64,000 bases of DNA, taken from Mytilus edulis (taxonomy: Eukaryota). Under the pieces are notes generated by a model. That model had not been told where the DNA came from, made no database searches, and was given only the letters and a program-made list of their open reading frames with translations. Position 1 is the stretch's first letter. Each line of letters starts with the position of its first letter. The translations under genes were made by a program, and so were the position numbers. Below, piece by piece: positions 10,290-48,646 of the stretch. The stretch covers positions 29,326,001 to 29,390,000 of the forward strand of contig NC_092351.1 in assembly GCF_963676685.1 (NCBI RefSeq), read 5' to 3'.

Positions 10290-12029
10290 TATTGTGCTCT
10301 TTCCATTTCATCCAATACAGATAAACTGCCAAGATGTGTAGTTTCCAGAAGACTAAGAGTTCACGCGTCGAACATTGAAGAGTTGGTGAAACGTAAATAA
10401 CAGATGCTATAGAAATGATCGAATGTTTCTTATTCAATAGTTTATACGACAACATTTTTTTGTTTGGTCTAAGTATAAACCACGAACGAACCTTTTAGGT
10501 AAGTTACGCCCCAATCATCGGTGGTGTCCTTTTTTAGGGTTTCGGGATAAACACCTGCTTTAAAAAGGTAATAATTTGAAACTGCTTCATCAGTGTATAC
10601 AGCAAGTACTGTGCCAAGCGCAATCAGGTCTTTCATTCGGTAATTTTCCGTGGTTTCTGCGGGACCCGAATGGCGGGTTCGGTTGTTCTCGACAACTATC
10701 GGTATGGTCACCTTGCTTCCAATGGAATTATTTATGCAGTCTTTGTAAGTACCAACCAAACAGTTTTTACAAGAATAACATGACAGGTTAATAACTGTCA
10801 AATTAGCATCGTCCAAAGAAGAAGAAAACCTGATGCAGACTTCTAATACCGGAACGGGTTTAACAGATATTGTGTTACGATCTATACGCTCGACATATCT
10901 AAATATTCAGCGCTTACAATACAGTGCTTTAGTGCCCTTTAAATGTTTCCCGCTGTATTTAAAATAATCTGCCGCAGATTGTATTACTTCGTTCTCAAGA
11001 AAAATTAACAGCCATGTCTACTTGATTCTTTAAAAAGCCCCCGGCTGCGTCATAATGTCCCTTTGCGTTCGAAGTTTCGAAATAATTTCGAATGAAAAAT
11101 TCATATCCGTGTTTGGAACAAATGTCGATTAACATTCCAAAACAATTTCGTGACTTATATTGAACCATAACTTTTACATCATATCGAATCGAATCTAAAT
11201 ACTCCTTGACAAGGGTTTGAATATTTTGGGTAAAAAAACTTATCATGTCTCTCATCCGGGCTTATTACAAAGAAATGCTCTGTGATAATACATGGAATAT
11301 CCGGCAAACTTTCTACTCCGTCTACCTCCAGAATTGCATGACGATTAATTACGGACACATGCATCTATACTTCGTGCGCTGAAAACTTTCTTTGCAACAG
11401 TAGTTTTCGGAATAGTAATGAATTAAGTGCATTTTCTGACAACAGTAAGTTTTGTATTCGAATTTACAGTGATGTATTTGTACCGTTCCCAAGATACATT
11501 GGGAGAATCATCCGAAACATTTAACTCTTCGTCTGTAAATTTTAAGAACGAAGTCCACATTTACTACATTCACGATGAAACACGCCTTCGAGTAAGAACT
11601 ATTTACTTGATCCTTATCACATAAAGTAGCAACGGCGATATCAGTCAGATGTTCATAAATAGGGTACACGTTTTGCTCGAAATCTAAACTGTTCGGAATC
11701 ATGTATTTTTTCTAAACTCAATTGTTTTTGAAAACTAACATCTGACTTCTATGAGGTAGCGACAATAGCAGGTAATACAATCCTTTGGTCTTGCTGACCG
11801 GACAAAATACGGCTTTAATCTCTCAAATGGTCTTTGGTTCATTTTTATGTTTGGAATATTTATACACAAGTCATTAAACTCTTCAGTTTGAGATTTATCA
11901 AGTATATATATAGAATTTTTTAAGAATTGTTTTGGGGCCAATACGAATACGCTTCGTGTAATTTTTGTTTCCAGACGACCGGAATGTATTAGGATCTGTC
12001 CAAAAATTGTACGCGATTTTCTTTACTAA
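10290..12029 (-). pseudogene. Decayed DDD-type transposase (Sola2-like by motif), C-terminal part; interrupted by the YR element
   Basis: Frameshifted fragments LKPYFVRSARPKDCITCYCRY, YSENY, EHFFVISPDERHD, QYKS, RNYFETSNAKGHYDAAGGFLK and a C-terminal CYSCKNC...C. The superfamily call is from recalled motif patterns. Confidence 0.7.
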
Positions 12030-12129
12030 GGTTTATCACTTATAAGATAAACCAATTTAATGAAAGAGATTTGATTAATGTATTTATTTTCCTTAAATGA
12101 CATATTTTATCATTCGGATCCGCATCTCG

Positions 12130-12170
12130 CTTCCGGCTTATAAACATCACGTGACTTCAGCCTCACAGTT
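12130..12170 (+). promoter_or_regulatory. Internal Pol II core promoter of the YR element
   Basis: CTTCCGG, TATAAA (12139-12144), CACGTG (12148-12153) and an Inr-like CAGTT whose A (12167) is 28 nt after the TATA start. Confidence 0.55.
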
Positions 12171-12267
12171 GAACTAGCCGCTCTGGATAAGTGAAAGTTA
12201 CAAAAGTTTCAAAAGACAATCGTCAAAAAATCTTCGACATCCGCAACTTATAGATTTCTAATCAGAT

Positions 12268-13404
12268 ATGAAACCACCGAAAAGGCCTCGTAATGTTCCC
12301 AAAAAGGTTTCACAGCAGCCTACAGGTCCAGCAAAGAAATTTGGAAAAGGCAAAGTGCCGTCAACACGAGGAGCACTTTCAAAATCACAGAACACGACAA
12401 GAACCGTTCAAGTGTCTAGAGCAGCGACAGATTCTAATTTGGCAATTGCTAGGTGTGCAGCTATTAACATTGTATCAGACGCACATCAGGAACCCCCATT
12501 CGTGCCTTTCAGGATTCAAGATGAGATGGATACAGAAAGTCCAAATAGCAACGAGGGAGACGCACTGGACAGACCAAGGGAAGATTTGTTACCACAGACT
12601 CCACAACCTGGCCCCAGCGGGGTGATGAGTCCAGCAAACAACAACCTTGGTATGTTAACTGTCTCAAATGTTTCTCACGGGTCGGCTGCTGGGTCTTTAG
12701 ATACTCGTTTACAAGTGGACCAATCCCCTTCATACATTTCAAGTGTTTTCGATCCCATTTCATCCCATATTCCGGTCAAAATTAAAGAAAAAATATGGAA
12801 CGGTGAATTTATTGACCTGAACGTTCTTCTAAAATCCACCCGGGACCTTTTAAACGAGCAAAATTTAGAGGGTGAACTGGTAGTTAAAGGGGGTGTTTTA
12901 TCCCTAGTTAACCAAAAGAAAAGTCCCATAAAAAGTATTTATATCTGGACTTCCGCATTCATGATTTATGGAAGTGTCATGCTTGAAAAATAGCCCAACA
13001 AAGGTCTGGAGTTTTTCAAATACATGCAAACAGTCAGAATGGCAGCCTCAAGGGGTTACTCTGGAGGCTGGGTTCATTATGATGAGCAATTTAGGTTACG
13101 TAAAGTTTTTTCCCCCTTTTCTTCATGGGGAGTTGTCGATATGGAGCTGTGGTTACTATGTGTATCTACTCCGAACGTTAGTCCTTTTTTTAACACAGGA
13201 ATTTCAAATATCAATAACCATCAATCGCATAGTGGGAATTCATCGACAAGTGGGGCGTCGAGTCAAAATGTAGGACAACGACGCGTGTTTACATGCAGAT
13301 TATTCAATAACAAGGGTACTTGTACATTTGGCAAGAATTGCAAATTTGCTCACAAATGCTCGAAATGTAATGGTAGTCATCCCTATTTAGAATGCAGAAA
13401 TTAA
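12268..13404 (+). pseudogene. gag: Gag-like ORF1 with one premature stop (TAG 12991-12993, probably TGG)
   Basis: ORFs 12268-12993 and 13024-13404 are in one frame. IKEKIWNGEFIDL and WVHYDEQFR motifs; C-terminal CCCH (CRLFNNKGTCTFGKNCKFAH) and CCHC (CSKCNGSHPYLEC) fingers. Confidence 0.88.
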
Positions 13405-13492
13405 TTCCGCTTTGTTTTTGTTTACCTTGTTTTTGTAAACATCTTTTTTCCTAGAAATTATATTTAGATATTGTTATGTGTGGCTTATTGAA

Positions 13493-15595
13493 GGGAAAAC
13501 GGTAGTATTTAATTTTCCCAGCATTAGGTTGGCCTTTTGTGTACCCAAGGCAGGTGAAGGAAGTCAAATTAGGAGCGCTGTGATTGGATGTAAGGGTACA
13601 ATATATTTTTTTATTTATCTATGAATAACTGCAGTGTGTATATTTACAATATAAATTTTAAAACCTATTGAAATATTTTCTAGAGAATTATTCGAAAAGA
13701 CTTGCAAAATTTCATAAATTTGGTGCAAAATGACGGTGGGCATGGATAACATAAACAAGCTCCGTTGGAAGTTGGTCATGATACTATTTGGCTTTAATTT
13801 TTAAAACAGAGTAATAAAGTACTAACACAACATATAACTGTTTTATCCAGGTTTTTATCTTAAAAAGTGGTAAATTTAGAAAATGTTAGCATTGTCGCCA
13901 ATGGCAGAATAAATAGTACCGTTTTCCCTATACTGAAGATAGCAAGGGAAATCAAGGCACTCAGACTTCAATTCTTTTATACTATTTTGAAGCTTTTGAT
14001 TAGTACATTTGATTTTTATCACAAAGAATAGAAATTTTTCACTGAGAACAATACTGTGTTGAGAAAAGTGCTGAGTCATCATGATAGGTCAAATTGATTG
14101 GTAATGATATAAAACTTTATTCTAGGATGTCAATATTAACTATATTGTGTAAAATGCACCATATTATAGTTCTTTTGTATTTGATTTCACCTTTCGCAAT
14201 GATTTTTTCAATTGGAAACACCAGAATTCAAGTCGCGACAAATATTTTTTACTGAAATGTTTGCCTTTTTTGCTGCGTAATTCCCTAAATGTATAACTTG
14301 GGTATTTCTGTAAACATAATCTATTAAAATGGGAAATAGTCTGGTTTAGTTTGTACTGTTTATGGAATTAGGCAATATTTGGTCACATTGAAAGCATTTT
14401 CAGTGTTAGAATTGTTCATCTAAGAAAAAAAGAGGCCCACTTGAGGCTAAATTTACATAGAATTTATACTCTCCTGTGTAAAGAATTGTTCACATTCTTG
14501 ATAATGCATGCAGCAAATATTTCAAAAGTGCTTCATTTTGTAGTTTCTTTCTTTTATTATATCAGACATAACTAATTTTTCATTTCCTACTGTTTGAAAG
14601 GACTTTTGTTGGAAATTAATACTCCCAAGGGACATAATTCAGCTTTTTCATTGATTAATACAGGCAACAAAGGCAACTTTACAGCTGAGTAGTTTGCATA
14701 TTTAATGTTTAAAGTGTCTAATATCTTTGTTTTCATCATCTCAAGACAGAATAATAGATTTTATAACAAGCTCTAAAAATTTTAACCACAATATGGCATA
14801 TACTAAAGCATGGAATGGAGATTAGTATGAAAAATCTTGAATTTGTGCATTTCTTGTAAATTTTTGATAAAATGAATACAAATTGAATGGAACTGTCCAT
14901 TTTATCTGTTTAAACGGAACTATTTATCATTCTTTTTAAATAAGATAAGATATGATTGGATACAGGTTGTTTATTAAGGCTTTTCTGAAAGAAGTAGAGA
15001 ATGAGGTAAACCAGCATGTAGGGGTGGGGACATAAAATGATCTATGTTTCTTCAAGTACTGGGGACATACAAGTATTTATTATAGCCAAGGTTTTCACAA
15101 TAGCCTAGTATTGCATTAATACTGTCATAAGAATTCTTTATATCTTTATGTCACAGTATAGGGAAAACGGTAGTATTTAATTTTCCCAGCATTAGGTTGG
15201 CCTTTTGTGTACCCAAGGCAGGTGAAGGAAGTCAAATTAGGAGCGCTGTGATTGGATGTAAGGGTACAATATATTTTTTATTTATCTATGAATAACTGCA
15301 GTGTGTATATTTACAATATAAATTTTAAAACCTATTGAAATATTTTCTAGAGAATTATTCGAAAAGACTTGCAAAATTTCATAAATTTGGTGCAAAATGA
15401 CGGTGGGCATGGATAACATAAACAAGCTCCGTTGGAAGTTGGTCATGATACTATTTGGCTTTAATTTTTAAAACAGAGTAATAAAGTACTAACACAACAT
15501 ATAACTGTTTTATCCAGGTTTTTATCTTAAAAAGTGGTAAATTTAGAAAATGTTAGCATTGTCGCCAATGGCAGAATAAATAGTACCGTTTTCCC
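13493..15595. mobile_element. Non-autonomous composite DNA transposon with long terminal direct repeats (KolobokP-like)
   Basis: Near-identical repeats 13493-13928 and 15161-15595, each with its own TIRs gggaaaacggtagtattt / aaatagtaccgttttccc. Outer 4-bp TSD TGAA; TATA at both inner junctions. Confidence 0.85.
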
Positions 15596-15844
15596 TGAAC
15601 AGACATGTTCAGTTCCCGATCCAGTTTAATTATAACTACTTAATGACGTATACATATATGAAACAGAGGCTGTAACCGAGTATAAATAGAATACAGATTT
15701 AGCACACGTGAGAGATATCTTTCAGTACATTTGAACTTGTTTGCTAGAAATGGTCGAGTTATCTCTCCTTGTACTAGAAAAAATGTATTTACTATATTTT
15801 ATCATGTTAATTAATTTGTGTTTGTTTTTGTTTTTAATTTGCAG

Positions 15845-17463
15845 GTTACAAGCATTTGTATTCTCTGGGTAATTCGCCAATAAACGTCGATGAAGTAAAG
15901 AAAGCTCTCAAAAATTACCCACATCAAGAGGTTGCGCGAGACCTGATACAAGGTCTCGAAGCTGGGTTTAAACTAAAATACTCCGGTCCGAGACTTCCTA
16001 TGGATATAGATTCTAAAGAAATGAATGGGGAGAAAGCCACCATAGCCAGGGACAAAATCCTTAAAGAAATGAACCTGGGTAGGGTAGCTGGTCCTTTTTC
16101 AGAACCTCCGTTCCCCACCTTTCGTGTTTCTCCGATCTCGGTTATCCCTAAAAAATCTAGTTCAGAATTCAGGTTAATTCATAATTTGTCCTTTCCTATA
16201 AATCACTCCGTTAATGACTTTATTGACAAGCAGTACTGTTCTGTAAAATACTCAAGTATAGCTATAGACGACGCTGTCAATATGATTCACAGATTGAAAA
16301 AGAACACGCTCTTGGCCAAGTGCGACGTAAAATCGGCTTTTCGTTTGCTAAGACTCTCTCCGGGTGATTTTGATCTGATGGGGTTCAAATTTGAGAATCA
16401 ATATTTCTTTGATAAATGCCTCCCAATGGGGGCCAGTATTAGCTCGGCGCTATTTGAATCCTTTTCCACCGCCTTGCATTGGGTTGTACAGCAACAGTCA
16501 AAAAACGACAATATTTTACATTATTTGGACGATTTTCTGTTTGGAGGCGAGGCACGAACTTCTCAATGCCACGACACTCTAAAGTGTTGCCAGGATTCTT
16601 GTAAACTTTGAGGGGTTCCGTTAGCAGAGAAAAAAACCGTCGAGCCAACGGAAGTGTTGATATTCCTTGCTATTGAATTTGACACAATCAACATGATAAT
16701 GCGTCTCCCCGAAGACAAACTTATTGAGTTAAAAGCCAGAATTTCTTATTGTTTAGGTAGATCCAAAATCACCCTTCGGGATTTACAATCTTTGATTGGT
16801 ATACTAAATTTTGCATGTCAAGTAATTGTCCCGGGTCGAGCCTTTTGTCGTCGTTTGATTGACGCCACTTGCAATTTGCGTAGGCCCCATCACAGAACCA
16901 GAATAACTAAGGCTATGAAAGAAGACCTTAATATTTGGTTACTATTTCTATCAAACTACAACGGTACTACCGTAATTCTGGATAAATTCTGGTCATCAAA
17001 CTCAGATCTCGAATTGTTCACTGACAGTGCAGGTGGGGTCGGAAAAGGCTTTGGTATTTATTTTGAAGGGAAATGGGCCCAGGCGAGTTGGCCCCACAAT
17101 TGGATAAATTCTGGAATTTTAACCGATATTACCTTTCTAGAACTGTTCCCTGTAATCGTTGCTTTGGACATTTGGGGAGGCATGTTAAAAAACAAGAAAA
17201 TTTTATTTCACATAGATAACCAGAGCGTAGTTTCTATAATCAATAAAAAGTCTTCAAAGTCGACAAGTGTTATGTCCCTAATCAGAAAACTTGTATTGGC
17301 CTGCTTGGAATGCAACATATTGATTAAAGCCGAACATATCCCAGGTCATTTGAATTCTCTTGCTGACTCCCTCTCTCGTTGTGATTTTCAGAAGTTCCGG
17401 AAACTATGCCCCACAGCAGATGCAAACCCATACTCGATTCCGGCCCATCTCTGGAATGTTTAA
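15845..17463 (+). pseudogene. pol: Reverse transcriptase-RNase H (DIRS/Ngaro type) with one premature stop (TGA 16609-16611, probably TGG)
   Basis: FRLIHNLS, KCDVKSAFR, LPMG and HYLDDF motifs; RNase H LFTDSA, ITFLELFP, IDNQSVV and NSLADSLSR. The two listed ORFs share one frame. No ATG at the start of the frame; acceptor tttgcag ends at 15844. Confidence 0.92.
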
Positions 17464-18374
17464 AAGACGAGGCAGACCTATTACTTAAATGTTCAATGGC
17501 TCCGAACTCCTGGAAAACTTATAAAACAGCAGTAGAATGTTTAAAAAAGTTTCGCATTATTTATAACAATCGCGATATTTGGCCGGTACCTATCGTCGAA
17601 ATAGCTCAATTCATAGCATACCTGTCGTACAAAGGTTTCTCTGCGTCTACTGTTTCTACCTACATCTCTGGATTGGCCCACACACACAAGATTAACAATG
17701 TAACAGATAACACGAAATCATTCATCATCTGCAAAATGATTGAAGGATTGCGTAGAAAAAATCCGCAAAAACCAGATGTTCGAACGCCGATATCGTTGGA
17801 CTTGTTAAAACGTTTAATTCACAGTCTACGGAACGTCTGCAATTCTCAATATGAAACTATATTGTTTTCTTCGGCTTTTTCTCTTGCGTATTTCGCCATG
17901 CTACGGGTAAGTGAGTTGGCTATAAACAGTCGTACTGACGAAAGCGGACATGCATTGAAATGTGAAGATATCACTTTTGATAAGAGTAAGGGTCAAACCG
18001 AATTACATGTAAAAATATGCAGCTCAAAAACCGATCAAAAGCATACTTCCATAACCCTGATCATTCAAAGCCATGCAGATTCGAATATCTGTCCAATCAC
18101 GCTATTACAATCTTACTTGCAGGTTCGCTACTCCGGCGTAAATGGATCAAATAAATTATATACACATTTTAATGGTTTGGCCTTAACAAAATATCAATTT
18201 TGTTCCCTGCTTCAAAAATGTTTGGGTTTCTGTGAACTACCGTTCCACATTCGTTCTCATTCTTTTCGGATAGGACGAGCTACTGATATGGCAAAAAATG
18301 GTGTTAAAGACGATATTATCAAGCAGTGCGGCCGATGGTCTTCCGTTGCATATTTACGCTATATTCGTATCTGA
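17392..18374 (+). CDS. Tyrosine recombinase, overlapping the RNase H C-terminus
   Basis: Open frame with catalytic R (MLRVSE), K (SKTDQ), HxxR (SHSFRIG), GRW and Y (AYLRYIR). Confidence 0.93.
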
Positions 18375-18447
18375 GTCTTAAATTTAACTTTCATTACAGC
18401 TCAAACGAAGTGTTTTTAATATTATAATACATATTACCTCCTTTTAG

Positions 18448-19046
18448 GTTCAAAAGCTATTTGGTTCGTCGGATCTTCAATTGTATATTGGGCACAGACA
18501 AATGCAAAAACGAGATACGGGGGCCCAAACATTGGTCTTCAAAGCAGAGGGGTGTACATACGCTGGTTTGGAAAAAGGGGTATGTTGTGGAATGATTTTA
18601 ATGCCAAGGTATCCCATGCAGTTGACAAATTTTCTCCTCCCGCCATGATAATCATTCAGCTTGGTTCCAATGATCCGGTCAAAGTTAAATCTTTGGAACT
18701 CATCCAAAATATTGAAAGGGATATTCTGCGTCTGCATTTACTTCTACCTAACACTCGCATCGTATGGAGTGAAATGTTAATGCGAAGGTATTGGCACGGT
18801 GCTACAGATGGAAAAGCTATCGAAAGATCTCGAAAACGAGTAAACTCGGCTATTAACAATTATGCCTTGAATGATGGGCACTGTGTTATTCAGCATCCTA
18901 ATATCCGAGCTCGAGAGATGAACTTGTATAGATATGACGGAACTCACTTATCCGATATTGGTTATGATATATACTTGAATAACATACAAGGGGGTATTGA
19001 AACTTTCCTATCATCTCAAAAAATTCGGCGTTTCCCGGAAGTATAA
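18448..19046 (+). CDS. SGNH/GDSL hydrolase
   Basis: The frame opens upstream of the listed ORF to include WFVGSS (block I), then GKRG, QLGSND and DGTH. It starts at acceptor ccttttag (18447). Confidence 0.88.
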
Positions 19047-19099
19047 TTTAAAATAGAATTTCTTATGGTTTTCAAGGGGTTAAAAAAAAGGGGGGGTAT

Positions 19100-21100
19100 T
19101 TAATGAGTGTGTATAGACTCACTCACGTGGCAAGATTAAGGGGTCATGATCCGTTCCTGTATTGTACGTCGGATCATATTAGTTTTTTACTTTCCTGCGT
19201 TACCGCAGGAAGTTCTGTTGAGACCATCTCATGTCTACCCTGAGTGGACCAGACACAAGTTGTTTCCTTTTTCCTTTTTCCTTTTTCGATATTCAAATTT
19301 TGAAAAATATTTGAAGTCCAAACTGAAACACAAAATTTTTTTTTTCTCCCAAAATTTTTTTTCTTCAAATTTTTTTTTCTTCAAAAAATTTTTTTTCTCA
19401 AAATCTTTTTTCCTCAAAATATTTTTTGCTCAAAATTTTTTTTGCTCAAAATTTTTTTTTCTCAAAAAATTTTTTTCTCCCAAAATTTGTTTTCCTCAAA
19501 AAATTTTTTCACCTCAATTTTTTTCCCCTCATTTATTTGGTTTCTGTTTCCTAATTCGATTTTCATTTCCTTATTCGAATTCTATTTCCTTATTCGATTT
19601 TCATTTCCTTATTCGCTTTCTATTTCCTTATTGGGTTCCCCTATTTTCTTATTCGGTTTCTATTTCCTTATTCGATTTTCATTTCCTTATTCAGTTTCTA
19701 TTTCCTTATTCGATTTTTATTTCCTTATTCGATTTTTATTTCCTTATTCGCTTTCTATTTCCTTATTCGATTTTCATTTCCTTATTCTGTTTCTATTTCC
19801 TTATTCGGTTTCTATTTCCTTATTGGTTTCTATTTTATTCGGTTTCTATTTCCTTATTCGGTTTCTATTTCCTTATTCGATTTTCATTTCCTTATTGGGT
19901 TTTTAATTCCTGATTGGGTTTCTATTTCCTTATTCGATTTTCATTTCCTTATTTGGTTTCTATTTCCTTATTTGATTTTCATTTTCTTATTCGGTTTCTA
20001 TTTCCTTATAAATAGCAAATAAGCAAATACAAACTGAATAAGGAAATAGAAACCGAATTAGGAAATGAAAATAGAATAAGGAAATAGAAACCCAATAAGA
20101 AAATGAAAATCGAATAAGGAATTAGAAACCGAATAAGGAAATAGAAACAGAATAAGGAAATGAAAATCGAATAAGGAAATAGAAACCAAATAAGGAAATA
20201 AAAATCGAATAAGGAAATAGAAACCGGATAAGGAAATGAAAATTTAATAAGGAAATAGAAACCGAATAAGAAAATAGGGGAACCCATTAAGGAAATAGAA
20301 AGCCAATAAGGAAATGAAAATCGAATAAGGAAATAGAAAGCGAATAAGTTAATGAAAATCGAATAAGGAAAAAGAAACTGAATAAGGAAATAGAAACCCA
20401 ATAAGGAAATAGAAACCAAATAAGAAAATGAAAATCGAATAAGGAAATGGAAACCAAATAAGGAAATAGAAACCCAATAAGAAAATAGAAAACAAATAAG
20501 GAAATGAAAATCGAATAAGGAAAAAGAAACCGAATAAGGAAATGAAAATCGAATTAGGAAACAGAAACCAAATAAGAAATGAGGGGACAAAAATTGAGGT
20601 GAAAAAAAATTTGGACAAAAACAAATTTTGGTGGAAAAAAAAATTTTGAGGAAAAAAAATTTGGGGAGAAAAAAATTTTTTGAGAAAAAAAAAATTTTCA
20701 GGAAAAAAAATTTGAGGAAAAAAAATTTTGTGTTTCAGTTTGGACTTCAAATGTTTTTCAAAATTTGAATATCGAAAAAGGAAAAAGGAAAAAGGAAACA
20801 ACTTGTGTCTGGTCCTGAGTGGCCGGTTCTGAATTGGTACCAGTTCGAGCTTAACTGTTTGTTTAATCTAGAAATTGTTAAATTGTTAATCTTTACTCCC
20901 CTGAAACCAGGGGGTGATGCGAATAAGACCCGACGTATTTGGGGATCATGGCCCTCGTTCTCTTTAGGATTTAACCTGGAGGAACTTGAGCATCCATTGC
21001 TACCAATGGTGCACAGATTTGTCAGTTAAATCAATCATGTCGGCATTCTGTTATCATGTCAGACCTCGTCATTCAAAGTGAACTGTGGCCGTTAATTCCA
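19100..21100 (+). other. Structured 3' non-coding region of the YR element (split by the foldback insertion)
   Basis: Nested long-range stems 19141-19152/20943-20954 and 19165-19180/20922-20937, plus several local hairpins. Confidence 0.6.
19248..20813. mobile_element. Foldback-type non-autonomous DNA transposon (MuDR/FB-like)
   Basis: About 760-bp inverted arms starting accagacacaagttg, built of T-tracts and ~20-bp ttccttattcgattttcatt-type subrepeats. 9-bp TSD CCTGAGTGG (19239-19247, 20814-20822). Confidence 0.9.
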
Positions 21101-21151
21101 CATAAATTGCTTGTTTGTTATGCTTTGCCTTAAACTTGATTCTTTAATTAA

Positions 21152-21330: not shown

Positions 21331-21509
21331 CACTGTCCTATTTAAAAATTTACTGTCTACAAATTTTTGAATTTTTAGAAATACTGAGGCTTTTCTACCT
21401 CAGGCATAGATTACCTTAGCTGTATTTGGCAAAACTTTTAGGAATTTTGATCCTCAATGCTCTTCAACTTCGTACTTTATATGGCCTTTTTAACTTTTTT
21501 AGATTCGAG

Positions 21510-21555
21510 CGTCACTGATGAATGAGTCTTTTGTAGACGAATCGCGCGTCTGGCG
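21510..21555 (+). ncRNA. Type I hammerhead ribozyme (variant, GAAT instead of GAAA)
   Basis: cgtca-CTGATGA-atga-gtc[ttttgta]gac-GAAT-cgcgcg-TC-tggcg. Confidence 0.75.
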
Positions 21556-21878
21556 TATATACTAAATTTCGTCCTGGTATCTATGATGAGTTTATTCACA
21601 ACCACTGGGTCGATGCCACTGCTGATGGAGATTTATTTCCCCGAGGGTATCACAAGCCCATTAGTCAGCACTTTTTGTGCTGACATAAATTGACATTGAT
21701 ATGGTTATATTTATAAATTTACTGTCTACAATTTTTTTAATTTTTAGAAATACTAAGGCTTTTCTACCTCAGGCATAGATAACCTTAGCTGTATTTGGCA
21801 AAAATTTTAGGAATTTTGATCCTCAATGCTCTTCAACTTCGTACTTTATTTGGCCTTTTTAACTTTTTTGGATTCGAG

Positions 21879-21924
21879 CATCACTGATGAATGAGTCTTT
21901 TGTAGACGAAACGCGCGTCTGGTG
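21879..21924 (+). ncRNA. Type I hammerhead ribozyme
   Basis: catca-CTGATGA-atga-gtc[ttttgta]gac-GAAA-cgcgcg-TC-tggtg. Stem I covaries with the first copy. Confidence 0.82.
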
Positions 21925-22799
21925 TATATACTTAATTTAGTCCTGGTATCTATGATGAGTTAATCCTTAACTTTTTTTATTACAAATACTGTTACGCAAG
22001 TCTTTTAACCCTCGTTGTGGTCAATGCTAATGATGGTAAGTTTTTTTAAATAAAGACATTTTGAATGATCGCAAAATGAGATAAATGTCCAAATGGAGCT
22101 TATTTAAAAGCAACCAATGGTCTCCGTAGACTCTTCAACAATCAAAAGTTATAAAAGGGCCCAACATGAAAAATTGTGATCAAATATACGAAAAAAAAAG
22201 GTTTGATTTTTTGACAAAACAATAAACAGAAAACAAATTTGAAGGACACTAACACACAACAACTACTGACTTACAGGCTCGACATCTAATAAGCACACGT
22301 AGAATATAAAAGGGTGAAATACGACTGTGTCTTTTCAATGCTTCTCTAACCTTGTAGGTCGAGTTGCACAACAGCACAGTAATGGTATCGGTAGGTGCTT
22401 TAAGATTTTCAGTTAGTGGAAACCTATGAAGAAATGTGTGTATAGCCAGTCAAGGTCGTTAAAAACTTCCATTTGTTGTAGAGCAAAACAGAAATCAATC
22501 AGACTGTAGTGCTATATATATGTGTGTAGGTTTAGAAGAGCGACAGGTTAAACTTTTCCAAAAATTCTTTTTAAAACATTTATAACTGGCTTACAAAGTA
22601 GTGTTTATAAAAGTATAAGTGAATACTTGCACTACCAATACCCCATTGTAAAACACGCTCACATACACATACACCAACACAATATACACAAAACAACCCC
22701 AAACAACCCACATAAACACAATTTCTGTTCTATACTCATGAGCAATACCTCTACTAAGACAAGTGTGCTCTAAGTTATTATATTGTCCAATTGCTTGAT

Positions 22800-47314: not shown

Positions 47315-48646
47315 CAAAGGCAGCGTTGTTTAATGTTATATTTGTAATTCTCATCGGATTTTGTCAAATGTGTTGACGTCTTTTCTATTATATTTATGTG
47401 TTATGAAACAAAAATTAAACACCGCCGTCATTTATTAGATTTAATTTTGGTCAACATAATCTGTACGATAATTTACGTTTGAAGTTGGATTCATAACAAA
47501 CTGCACATATATATATTATAGTTAATTGCTATTAATAAGTATTGCAATATGCATTGTGTTTAAATGCAATATCAGTATTTAGTTCTATTTTAATCTTTAA
47601 TCAATCCTAATTCTATCTTACTTTTGAGATATAGTTTTTCATATGTGACGTAATTTTTCTGCTGTTTCAGAAATTTCATATATTCAAATGTGACGTAATT
47701 TTTAATGCCTTTTCACCATCTTATGTGACGTCATTTTCATAATTTACTGCGTTGAGGCCTGTACTGATTTGGATGTGTCTATTCTGTGTTGGTCATTCAT
47801 TATGTATTCGTGTTTGTTTTATGTAATGAGTTAATACTTAAGTTTCATTATGTATATCTGTTATATTCATTTGATGATAAAATTTACTGTTTGCAATAGC
47901 ATTAATTGTTCTAAATAATAAGGATGTTCTTATCCCAAGCATAAAAACTTAGCCGTATTTGACACAACCTTTTTCAACTTTTGATCTTCAGTGCTGTACA
48001 ACTTTGTAATTTTTGTCGCTTTCGATCTTTTATATCTGGGCGTCACTGGTGAGTCTTGTGTGGACGAGGCGCGTTTTTGGCGTATTAAATTTTAAACCTG
48101 ATGCTTTTTGTTATTCGTTAATCATGTGTTTATTTGTCTAATACGTTTTCCTATTTATTTGTATTGTAGTCCTGTAATATTATGTTGTCATTTCTATGTT
48201 ATATTTAACATTGCCATTAAAGTGCGAGGTTTGGCAGCCACAAAACCAGGTTCAACCCACCATTTTTTCCTTTAAAAATGTCCTGTACCAAGTCAGGAAT
48301 ATGGCCATTGTTATATTATAGTTCGTTTCTGTGTGTGTTACAATTCAACTTTGGGTCGTTTGTTTTCTCTTATTTTTTTAATGTAAATTGACATTGCGAT
48401 AAGACGTGTCACGGTACTTGTCTATCCCAAATTCATGTATTTGGTTTTGATGTTATATTTGTTATTCTCGTGGGGTTTTGTCTGATGCTTGGTCCGTTTC
48501 TGTGTGTGTTAGTTACATTGTAGTGTTGTGTCGTTGTTCTCCTCTTATATTTATGCGTTTCCCTCAGTTTTAGTTTGTTACCCCGATTTTGTTTTTTGTC
48601 CATGGATTTATGAGTTTGAACAGCGGTATACTACTGTTGCCTTTAT
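47315..48646 (+). mobile_element. Composite non-autonomous repeat containing a decayed retrozyme fragment
   Basis: 47880-48090 aligns with the 369-nt unit and has a degenerate hammerhead (cgtca CTGGTGA gtc..gac GAGG..tggcg). The 3' part matches the GT-rich repeat family. Confidence 0.6.

What the first reader, a model, noticed from the sequence alone, without database searches (positions are those of the whole stretch)
12027..21151. Precisely bounded YR element with no split direct repeats or ITR/ICR, but a palindromic circle junction
Seen: the empty site rebuilds exactly with a TAA overlap at both ends, as expected for tyrosine-recombinase integration. Established: Ngaro/PAT elements have split direct repeats (A1..B1A2B2) and DIRS1 elements have ITRs plus an ICR. 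I find neither here. The left end begins with the hairpin GGTTTATC-acttataa-GATAAACC (12030-12053). Joining the ends gives tctttaattaa-ggtttatc...gataaacc-aat-ttaatgaaaga, an extended imperfect inverted repeat that could be the recombinase att site. Mundane alternative: B1-B2 recombination deleted A2 in this copy.
Basis: partly seen in the sequence, partly recalled or inferred. Interest (0 to 1): 0.72.

Follow-up and report, generated by a model that had tools for sequence, protein, structure and literature searches.

The report
Truncated Ngaro copy, folded docking site
This is an ordinary recombinase-using jumping gene whose copy here lacks its internal repeat block, but the point where its two ends meet is a hairpin-forming inverted repeat kept across many related families, which likely means these elements paste themselves in from a folded single DNA strand, as bacterial integron cassettes do.

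Summary
The element at 12027-21151 is a Ngaro retrotransposon (gag-CCCH, RT/RH, Cre-like YR, SGNH). This copy lacks A2-spacer-B2, as do 24 of 100 loci examined, likely through B1xB2 recombination. The palindrome is real and family-wide. In 16 families here plus 3 outside contigs the junction reads TAA^NNN-stem-loop-stem-NNN-TTA, with 91% of stem cells paired, 51 compensatory cells and a mostly unpaired bubble at the cut. All 73 left ends keep the element's 6-nt spacer and none of 81 right ends carries it. Mismatched target triplets stay on the left 19 times against 1. This fits a single strand exchange on a folded substrate, as at integron attC and CTXphi attP; that step is inferred and untested. 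The scan noted the same hairpin idea before on other genomes.

The parts
12024..12026 (+). Host target triplet (TAC here; TAA at 48 of 73 left ends), immediately 5' of the crossover
   Evidence: empty paralogs L082-L084; triplet counts
12027..12205 (+). Repeat A1, 179 bp from the crossover; 98.3% identical to both A1 and A2 of sister L062
12027..12067 (+). A-side part of the junction hairpin: bubble 12027-29, inner stem 12030-37, loop 12038-45, inner stem 12046-53, bubble 12054-56, outer arm 12057-67
   Evidence: sequence; family comparison
12268..13404 (+). gag-like ORF1 with a C-terminal CCCH finger; in-frame stop at 12991-12993 in this copy
   Evidence: open 380-codon frame in L062
13493..15595 (.). 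Nested insertion, absent from sisters: 438-bp terminal direct repeats, each with short inverted ends, 4-bp TGAA duplication; KolobokP-like, no ORF of 100 codons
   Evidence: architecture as in the abstract of PMC9587614
15838..17463 (+). RT/RNase H ORF with no methyltransferase domain; in-frame stop at 16609-16611 in this copy
   Evidence: open 539-codon frame in L062 and L068
17385..18374 (+). Tyrosine recombinase ORF, open, Cre-like fold
18420..19046 (+). SGNH/GDSL hydrolase ORF
19128..21151 (+). Single repeat B (120 + 329 bp around the foldback insertion); its last 11 nt (21141-21151) are the outer 5' arm of the junction hairpin
19248..20813 (.). Nested foldback insertion inside B, with a 9-bp duplication (19239-47 and 20814-22) and arms built of 16-17-nt and 19-nt tandem units
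   Evidence: (joint skipping 1575 nt with 9 shared letters)

Best explanation
The element is a Ngaro retrotransposon copy that lacks the A2-spacer-B2 block of its sisters, likely lost by recombination between its two identical B repeats after insertion, and the family's end-to-start junction is a conserved two-stem inverted repeat that likely folds as single-stranded DNA so that the recombinase would join only one strand to the target. Shown: the family architecture; the exact crossover after TAA with no target duplication; conserved and covarying stems with a 2-3-nt unpaired bubble next to the crossover; a target match limited to the three bases 5' of the cut; and the same one-sided outcome at every junction counted. 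Inferred (about 0.85): post-insertion B1xB2 deletion, which leaves this copy without the B|A template that, in the standard model for split repeats (recalled), is needed to rebuild the ends. Inferred (about 0.55): the regenerated B2|A1 junction folds into a core TAA-N6-TTA whose 6-nt centre is half bubble and half paired; the Cre-like YR exchanges one strand at TAA^ with a host site; host replication or repair resolves the junction, as shown for attC and proposed for CTXphi. The core geometry favours the + strand. A cut on the - strand, using TTA/TAA microhomology, would give the same sequence product and is not excluded.
For: Family: L061, L062 and L068 have A 181-182 bp, B 441-448 bp and a 395-399-bp spacer; 32 of 60 YR-hit loci show the split-repeat pattern (L146 dropped as a satellite artefact). 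Deletion: of 100 loci, 43 canonical, 24 body-B only, 3 expanded with 2-3 tandem A-spacer-B units (the reciprocal product expected of unequal exchange), 7 called solo A-spacer-B (6 after removing the misfiled L195), 0 permuted. Body-B copies lie further from their nearest sister: median 1.08% (n=17) against 0.25% (n=28), p=0.0004. Hairpin: 19 junctions, 91% of 266 stem cells paired against 73.5% shuffled (0 of 500 shuffles) and 24-47% for slid partners; 9 of 14 pairs change on both sides. The bubble is 26% paired, and only 1 of 19 at its middle position. Null: 15 of 16 families score 13 or more, against 3 of 8320 other positions. Covariation includes positions +4 to +6, inside the presumed 6-nt spacer, and the distance between the two TAA/TTA boxes varies from 27 to 38 nt. 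One-sided outcome: 73 of 73 left ends keep the element's spacer (70 exact, 3 with one change), 0 of 81 right ends carry it, B ends are TAA in 77 of 81, and non-TAA target triplets stay left 19 times against 1 reciprocal, p=4e-5. No target match 3' of the cut beyond a weak +1 excess (38 of 81 against 28.8, uncorrected p=0.023). Precedent: attC and CTXphi passages; single-stranded DIRS-1 cDNA is an integration-competent intermediate (PMC7192593 passages).
Against: No folded or single-stranded Ngaro DNA was observed. The YR is closest to Cre, a double-strand recombinase (TM 0.74); integron integrase ranks 46th (TM 0.60). The 16 families are relatives in one genome, so cells are not independent events, and the anchors were chosen by best pairing (the null used the same search). 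L173 scores only 10 (its register is off by one) and the L192 window folds otherwise in the energy model. The two strands fold almost equally well, and no conserved extrahelical base was seen in the core stems. Most outside contigs did not show the motif: 2 of 36 with a tail over 300 nt in the strict scan and 8 of 92 loci in the relaxed scan, of which 3 show both stems; many are too short or collapsed to hold a junction. The age difference is confounded, because complete copies can have recent daughters. Some body-B copies are very young (0.13-0.17%). The model does not explain why the identical B1|A2 junction is never used (0 permuted copies).
Confidence: 0.55

Rival explanations
1. Ngaro copy with a B1xB2 deletion, but integration is from a double-stranded circle. 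The inverted repeat does another job: two inverted YR binding cores on duplex DNA, or an RNA/cDNA hairpin used while reverse transcriptase rebuilds the ends.
For: [quoted passage not shown] The YR is Cre-like. Two sites for one protein would also co-vary. The B1|A2 junction occurs in a contig of an RNA library (X15 loose end at 21151; not shown to be transcribed).
Against: Two-strand exchange over a mismatched TAA, or over a non-homologous 6-nt spacer, should leave both heteroduplex outcomes; found 19:1 and 73 of 73 / 0 of 81. Covariation extends into the spacer positions, and box spacing varies over 11 nt without helical phasing. The crossover abuts the bubble in all 16 families.
Confidence: 0.3
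2. The body-B form arose before insertion: the YR recombined the two hairpins of one intermediate (as in attC x attC cassette excision), or RT skipped from B2 to B1, giving A-ORFs-B and A-spacer-B circles that each integrate.
For: Body-B copies are common (24 of 100 loci; 7 of 10 ORF-linked 3' ends in this family) and solo A-spacer-B units exist. Some body-B copies are within 0.2% of a complete sister. Both forms have the same precise ends.
Against: Body-B copies are older on average, and tandem expansions exist, as unequal homologous exchange predicts. No permuted insertions were found, so the internal junction seems unavailable to the YR. Solo AB units are already ascribed to recombination in Cafeteria (PMC8547959 passage).
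Confidence: 0.12
3. One reading: a new class of YR retroelement with neither split direct repeats nor ITR/ICR, defined only by a palindromic circle junction.
For: The window copy has no second A or B and ends precisely.
Against: Sisters about 98% identical carry B1-A2-spacer-B2, as do 43 of 100 loci across 16 families. Loss of split repeats in single Ngaro copies is reported in Xenopus (PMC9210276 passages).
Confidence: 0.02

Closest known systems
Ngaro retrotransposons (order DIRS), SGNH-bearing type such as Xenopus DIRS-53_XT (PMC9210276)
   Same: Four ORFs gag, RT/RH, YR, SGNH; no methyltransferase; A1..B1-A2-B2 in complete copies; copies that have lost repeats are reported; solo AB units are reported in Cafeteria (PMC8547959)
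   Different: This copy has a single B and two nested insertions. The family has a 399-bp unique spacer between A2 and B2. The covarying junction hairpin and the one-sided crossover were not found in the papers I could search.
Integron attC sites recombined by IntI (PMC3458562, PMC5027507)
   Same: Imperfect hairpin with two paired boxes separated by an unpaired spacer and a variable terminal loop; crossover in the outer box at a conserved triplet; little sequence conservation; outcome consistent with one strand exchange
   Different: Triplet TAA rather than AAC; bubble 2-3 nt rather than 5-6; no conserved extrahelical bases seen in the core stems; the enzyme is Cre-like, not IntI-like; the target is any TAA-like host site, not a dedicated attI; mechanism untested here
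CTXphi attP(+) integration by XerC/XerD at dif (PMC3089051)
   Same: Two inverted core-like sites with a 6-nt centre that pair to form one site; single pair of strands exchanged; dif arms flank the centre with TTA/TAA-type ends
   Different: CTXphi uses host recombinases and one fixed chromosomal site, and its two sites lie about 90 bp apart; here the element encodes the YR, the loop is about 5-16 nt and targets are scattered
DIRS-1 (ITR/ICR) elements (PMC7192593)
   Same: YR retrotransposon with an internal template for the circle junction; trinucleotide at the ends; single-stranded cDNA intermediates shown for DIRS-1
   Different: Direct split repeats instead of ITR/ICR; no methyltransferase; the crossover sits in a stem arm, off the symmetry centre

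Membership tests
Ngaro | gag, RT/RH and YR ORFs in that order on one strand | tested here: met
Ngaro | No methyltransferase domain after RNase H | tested here: met
   Pfam scan of the 539-aa pol of L068 to E=1 finds RT and RNase H only, and YR overlaps its end
Ngaro | Split direct repeats A1..B1-A2-B2, internal block downstream of YR | tested here: met
   met by the family (L061, L062, L068); the window copy itself has only A1 and one B
Ngaro | SGNH hydrolase ORF after YR (some members) | tested here: met
   PF13472, E 1.3e-07
Ngaro | RT falls in the Ngaro clade of a tree with named reference elements | not tested
   no named Ngaro, PAT or DIRS reference proteins among the 120 listed homologs; no tree built
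PAT-like | Split direct repeats plus a methyltransferase domain | tested here: not met
   no MT domain; definition from PMC4157794 passages
DIRS1-like | Inverted terminal repeats with an internal complementary region | tested here: not met
   no inverted match between the element's ends in the window; complete sisters show direct repeats only
attC-type folded site | Structure conserved without sequence: two paired boxes, unpaired spacer, variable loop | tested here: met
attC-type folded site | Conserved AAC triplet and extrahelical bases | tested here: not met
   invariant triplet is TAA; no conserved single-base bulge in the core stems
attC-type folded site | Recombined by an integron integrase | tested here: not met
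   YR model matches Cre best; IntI structure 2a3v ranks 46th
attC-type folded site | Single strand exchange on a single-stranded substrate, resolved by replication | not testable with these tools
   genomic outcomes are consistent; needs biochemistry or a cell assay

The most novel reading that the evidence does not exclude
Ngaro retrotransposons integrate as folded single-stranded DNA: their B|A junction is a eukaryotic, independently evolved counterpart of attC and CTXphi attP(+), read by a Cre-like recombinase that exchanges one strand at TAA and needs no homology beyond the cut.
Probability: 0.5. Interest if true: 0.82.

Novelty: new member of a known kind. Interest (0 to 1): 0.55.

Why it matters
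The copy itself is ordinary. The junction matters because the substrate and specificity of DIRS-order recombinases had not been tested (stated in PMC7192593), and the usual model assumes a double-stranded circle. PMC5027507 (2016) names only IntI and XerC/XerD as tyrosine recombinases able to recombine single-stranded substrates. A 45-nt site with defined stems, bubble and cut point, and 16 natural enzyme-site pairs, makes the question directly testable with oligonucleotides. If true, it would add a third, eukaryotic case and explain how these elements insert at scattered TAA sites without duplication or homology.

Tried and rejected
Repeat-less new class: rejected. Shared TAA overlap at this locus: rejected. 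A full core site in the host target: rejected, TTA at +7..+9 in 5 of 81 against 3.5 expected, and no match to the B end beyond -3 except a mild excess at -5. Strand choice from folding energy: uninformative. Viral-contig scan with the YR: no relatives. Sedimenticola and other MAG contigs (L282-L293) hold related RTs, probably host carry-over; no canonical junction was found in them. Short-read contigs could not show whether a complete allele exists at this locus. No RT tree with named references was built. The fold search did not link the YR to IntI. Literature searches for a prior description of the junction hairpin listed nothing that described it. PMC3783388 had no hits for the terms asked and PMC2632668 was not relevant. 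Goodwin and Poulter 2004 and Poulter and Butler 2015 did not come up in my searches and were not read, so they may mention it. No supplements were opened. Look-ups of earlier scan notes by place and by sequence returned nothing. Rows dropped before counts: 28 of 101 left ends (27 by an arm-mismatch filter, nearly all misregistered cross-family duplicates, and one internal junction) and 4 of 85 right ends (internal junctions or misregistered); copies in families of two were left out of the age test.
Full report
OBSERVATION. The window is G000:C8:29326001-29390000. Named homologs of the RT are mostly from bivalves, so the host is likely a bivalve mollusc (inference). Between 12027 and 21151 lie a gag-like ORF with a CCCH finger, RT/RNase H, a tyrosine recombinase (YR) and an SGNH hydrolase. 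gag and pol each carry one in-frame stop. Two younger elements are nested inside: 13493-15595 and a foldback at 19248-20813. The hairpin at 12030-12053 is there.

THE FAMILY HAS SPLIT REPEATS. Searches of the genome with both ends and 20 fetched regions gave complete sisters. L061 and L062 (about 98% identical to the window copy) and L068 (89-94%) read A1 (181-182 bp) - ORFs - B1 (441-448 bp) - A2 - spacer (395-399 bp) - B2, with repeats 99.5-100% identical. The window copy equals A1 through one B. With gag, RT/RH, YR, SGNH and no methyltransferase, this matches Ngaro as defined in passages of PMC9210276, PMC8547959 and PMC4157794. No tree with named references was built.

HOW THE BLOCK WAS LOST. 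A YR search gave 131 matches from 129 of 1448 candidates scored. I fetched 60 of them, chosen to spread over score clusters, and 20 more end-matching loci. Of 100 loci classified, 43 are canonical, 24 are body-B only like the window, 3 have two or three tandem A-spacer-B units, 3 break after B-A, 7 were called solo A-spacer-B (L195 is misfiled, so 6), 13 are incomplete, 7 had no probe hit, and none is permuted. Contractions and expansions are the reciprocal products expected of unequal exchange between the B repeats. Body-B copies are further from their nearest sister than complete ones (median 1.08%, n=17, against 0.25%, n=28; p=0.0004), though complete copies can have young daughters, which confounds this. 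Post-insertion B1xB2 recombination is the likeliest origin. Formation before insertion is the rival.

THE OVERLAP IS MISPLACED. The insertion sits in a host repeat. Three empty paralogs join the base matching 12026 directly to the base matching 21152, with no TAA. One 460-nt contig of run X3 seems to give the same join with few differences from the flanks. L146, inserted in a tandem repeat, also shows no duplication. An RNA-library contig shows the same continuation from 21151.

THE JUNCTION IS A CONSERVED TWO-STEM INVERTED REPEAT. Thirty-two of the 60 YR loci, plus 5 fetched earlier, had a B1|A2 junction (L146 dropped). I took one per family, 16 in all; the YRs aligned from most of them are 33-53% identical to this family's. 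All read TAA^NNN-stem-loop-stem-NNN-TTA. Positions -5 to -1 and +4 to +11 pair in 13-16 of 16 families, while +1 and +2 pair in 1 and 0 of 16. The same anchored search scores 13 or more at 15 of 16 junctions and at 3 of 8320 other positions. Outside this genome, L203, L209 and L211 (metagenome contigs) show both stems, and L202 shows the inner stem at a left end; most of the 92 outside loci showed nothing, many being too short or collapsed. On the 19-row alignment, 91% of stem cells pair (shuffles 73.5%, 0 of 500; slid partners 24-47%) with 51 double-sided changes, and the bubble pairs in 26%. The rows are relatives, so these are not independent events.

WHAT THE INSERTION SCARS SAY. After dropping 28 of 101 left and 4 of 85 right rows (misregistered or internal), all 73 left ends keep the element's first six bases and none of 81 right ends carries them. 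Targets match the B end at -3, -2 and -1 (64, 70 and 57 of 73) and hardly elsewhere. Among 59 loci with both ends, the target triplet differed from TAA on the left with TAA on the right 19 times, the reverse once, and both differed once. A two-strand exchange across a mismatch should leave both heteroduplex outcomes. A single exchange followed by replication or repair leaves one (inference).

MECHANISM. Each arm of the repeat is a TAA-N6-TTA core. Folding one strand pairs the two arms into one core whose 6-nt centre is half bubble, with the cut at the edge of the outer stem. This resembles attC, an imperfect hairpin with two boxes, an unpaired spacer and a variable loop, recombined by one strand exchange and resolved by replication (PMC3458562 passages; PMC5027507 Introduction part 1). 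It also resembles CTXphi attP(+), two inverted dif-like sites that pair into one (PMC3089051 passages). DIRS-1 makes single-stranded cDNA that can complete retrotransposition, and its YR specificity was untested (PMC7192593 passages). Against: the YR is Cre-like by profile and by fold, no conserved extrahelical bases appear in the core stems, both strands fold alike, and nothing here explains why the internal junction is never used. A cut on the - strand gives the same product, so the strand is open. It works like attC by inference and is not a member of that family.

NOVELTY. The element is a new member of a known kind, and its missing repeats are ordinary decay. Searches listed no paper describing the junction hairpin; passages of PMC13465315 and PMC6681497 did not either; the two main Ngaro papers were not read. 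My reading was noted, before the look-up. One search then showed that the scan had reached the same hairpin idea on at least three other genomes, one also in a copy that had lost its internal block. Those are unchecked AI notes and not support.

VERDICT. Observation partly confirmed; headline interpretation refuted; att-site idea supported in corrected form. Interest 0.55. Folded single-strand integration has probability about 0.5 and would merit about 0.8.

Noticed in passing
window 13493-15595: Non-autonomous KolobokP-like insertion: two 438-bp direct repeats, each with short inverted ends, around 1.2 kb; 4-bp TGAA duplication. A 90% match to the repeat unit also lies inside L070.
   Followed up: partly
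window 19248-20813: Foldback element with a 9-bp duplication and arms made of 16-17-nt and 19-nt tandem units; very high summed contig depth in DNA runs.
   Followed up: partly
L079:4052-8566, L080: Family sharing A and B ends with this one (about 68-86% identical) but only about 4.5 kb long, with no YR hit and no ORF of 100 codons in L079: likely a non-autonomous Ngaro family with intact split repeats.
   Followed up: partly
L174, L196, L294: Copies with two or three tandem A-spacer-B units at the 3' end.
   Followed up: partly
100 loci: No permuted copy (A-spacer-B-A-ORFs-B) although B1|A2 and the regenerated B2|A1 junction should be identical; unexplained.
   Followed up: partly
window 19140-19175 and 20920-20956 (inside B): Once the foldback is set aside, B holds two short complementary stretches about 175 nt apart, seen by eye; a possible long-range RNA stem; not folded or tested.
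   Followed up: no
L282-L293: Ngaro-like RT genes on contigs filed in bacterial MAGs (mostly Sedimenticola), probably host DNA carried into the bins.
   Followed up: no
L228-L231, L265, L275: Metagenome contigs where an SGNH match lies upstream of the RT rather than after the YR; L228-L230 share a related inner stem.
   Followed up: no
window 21339-21602 and 21708-21971: Two 264-nt copies (94%) of a host repeat just right of the element, with a weaker match at 47879-48092.
   Followed up: no
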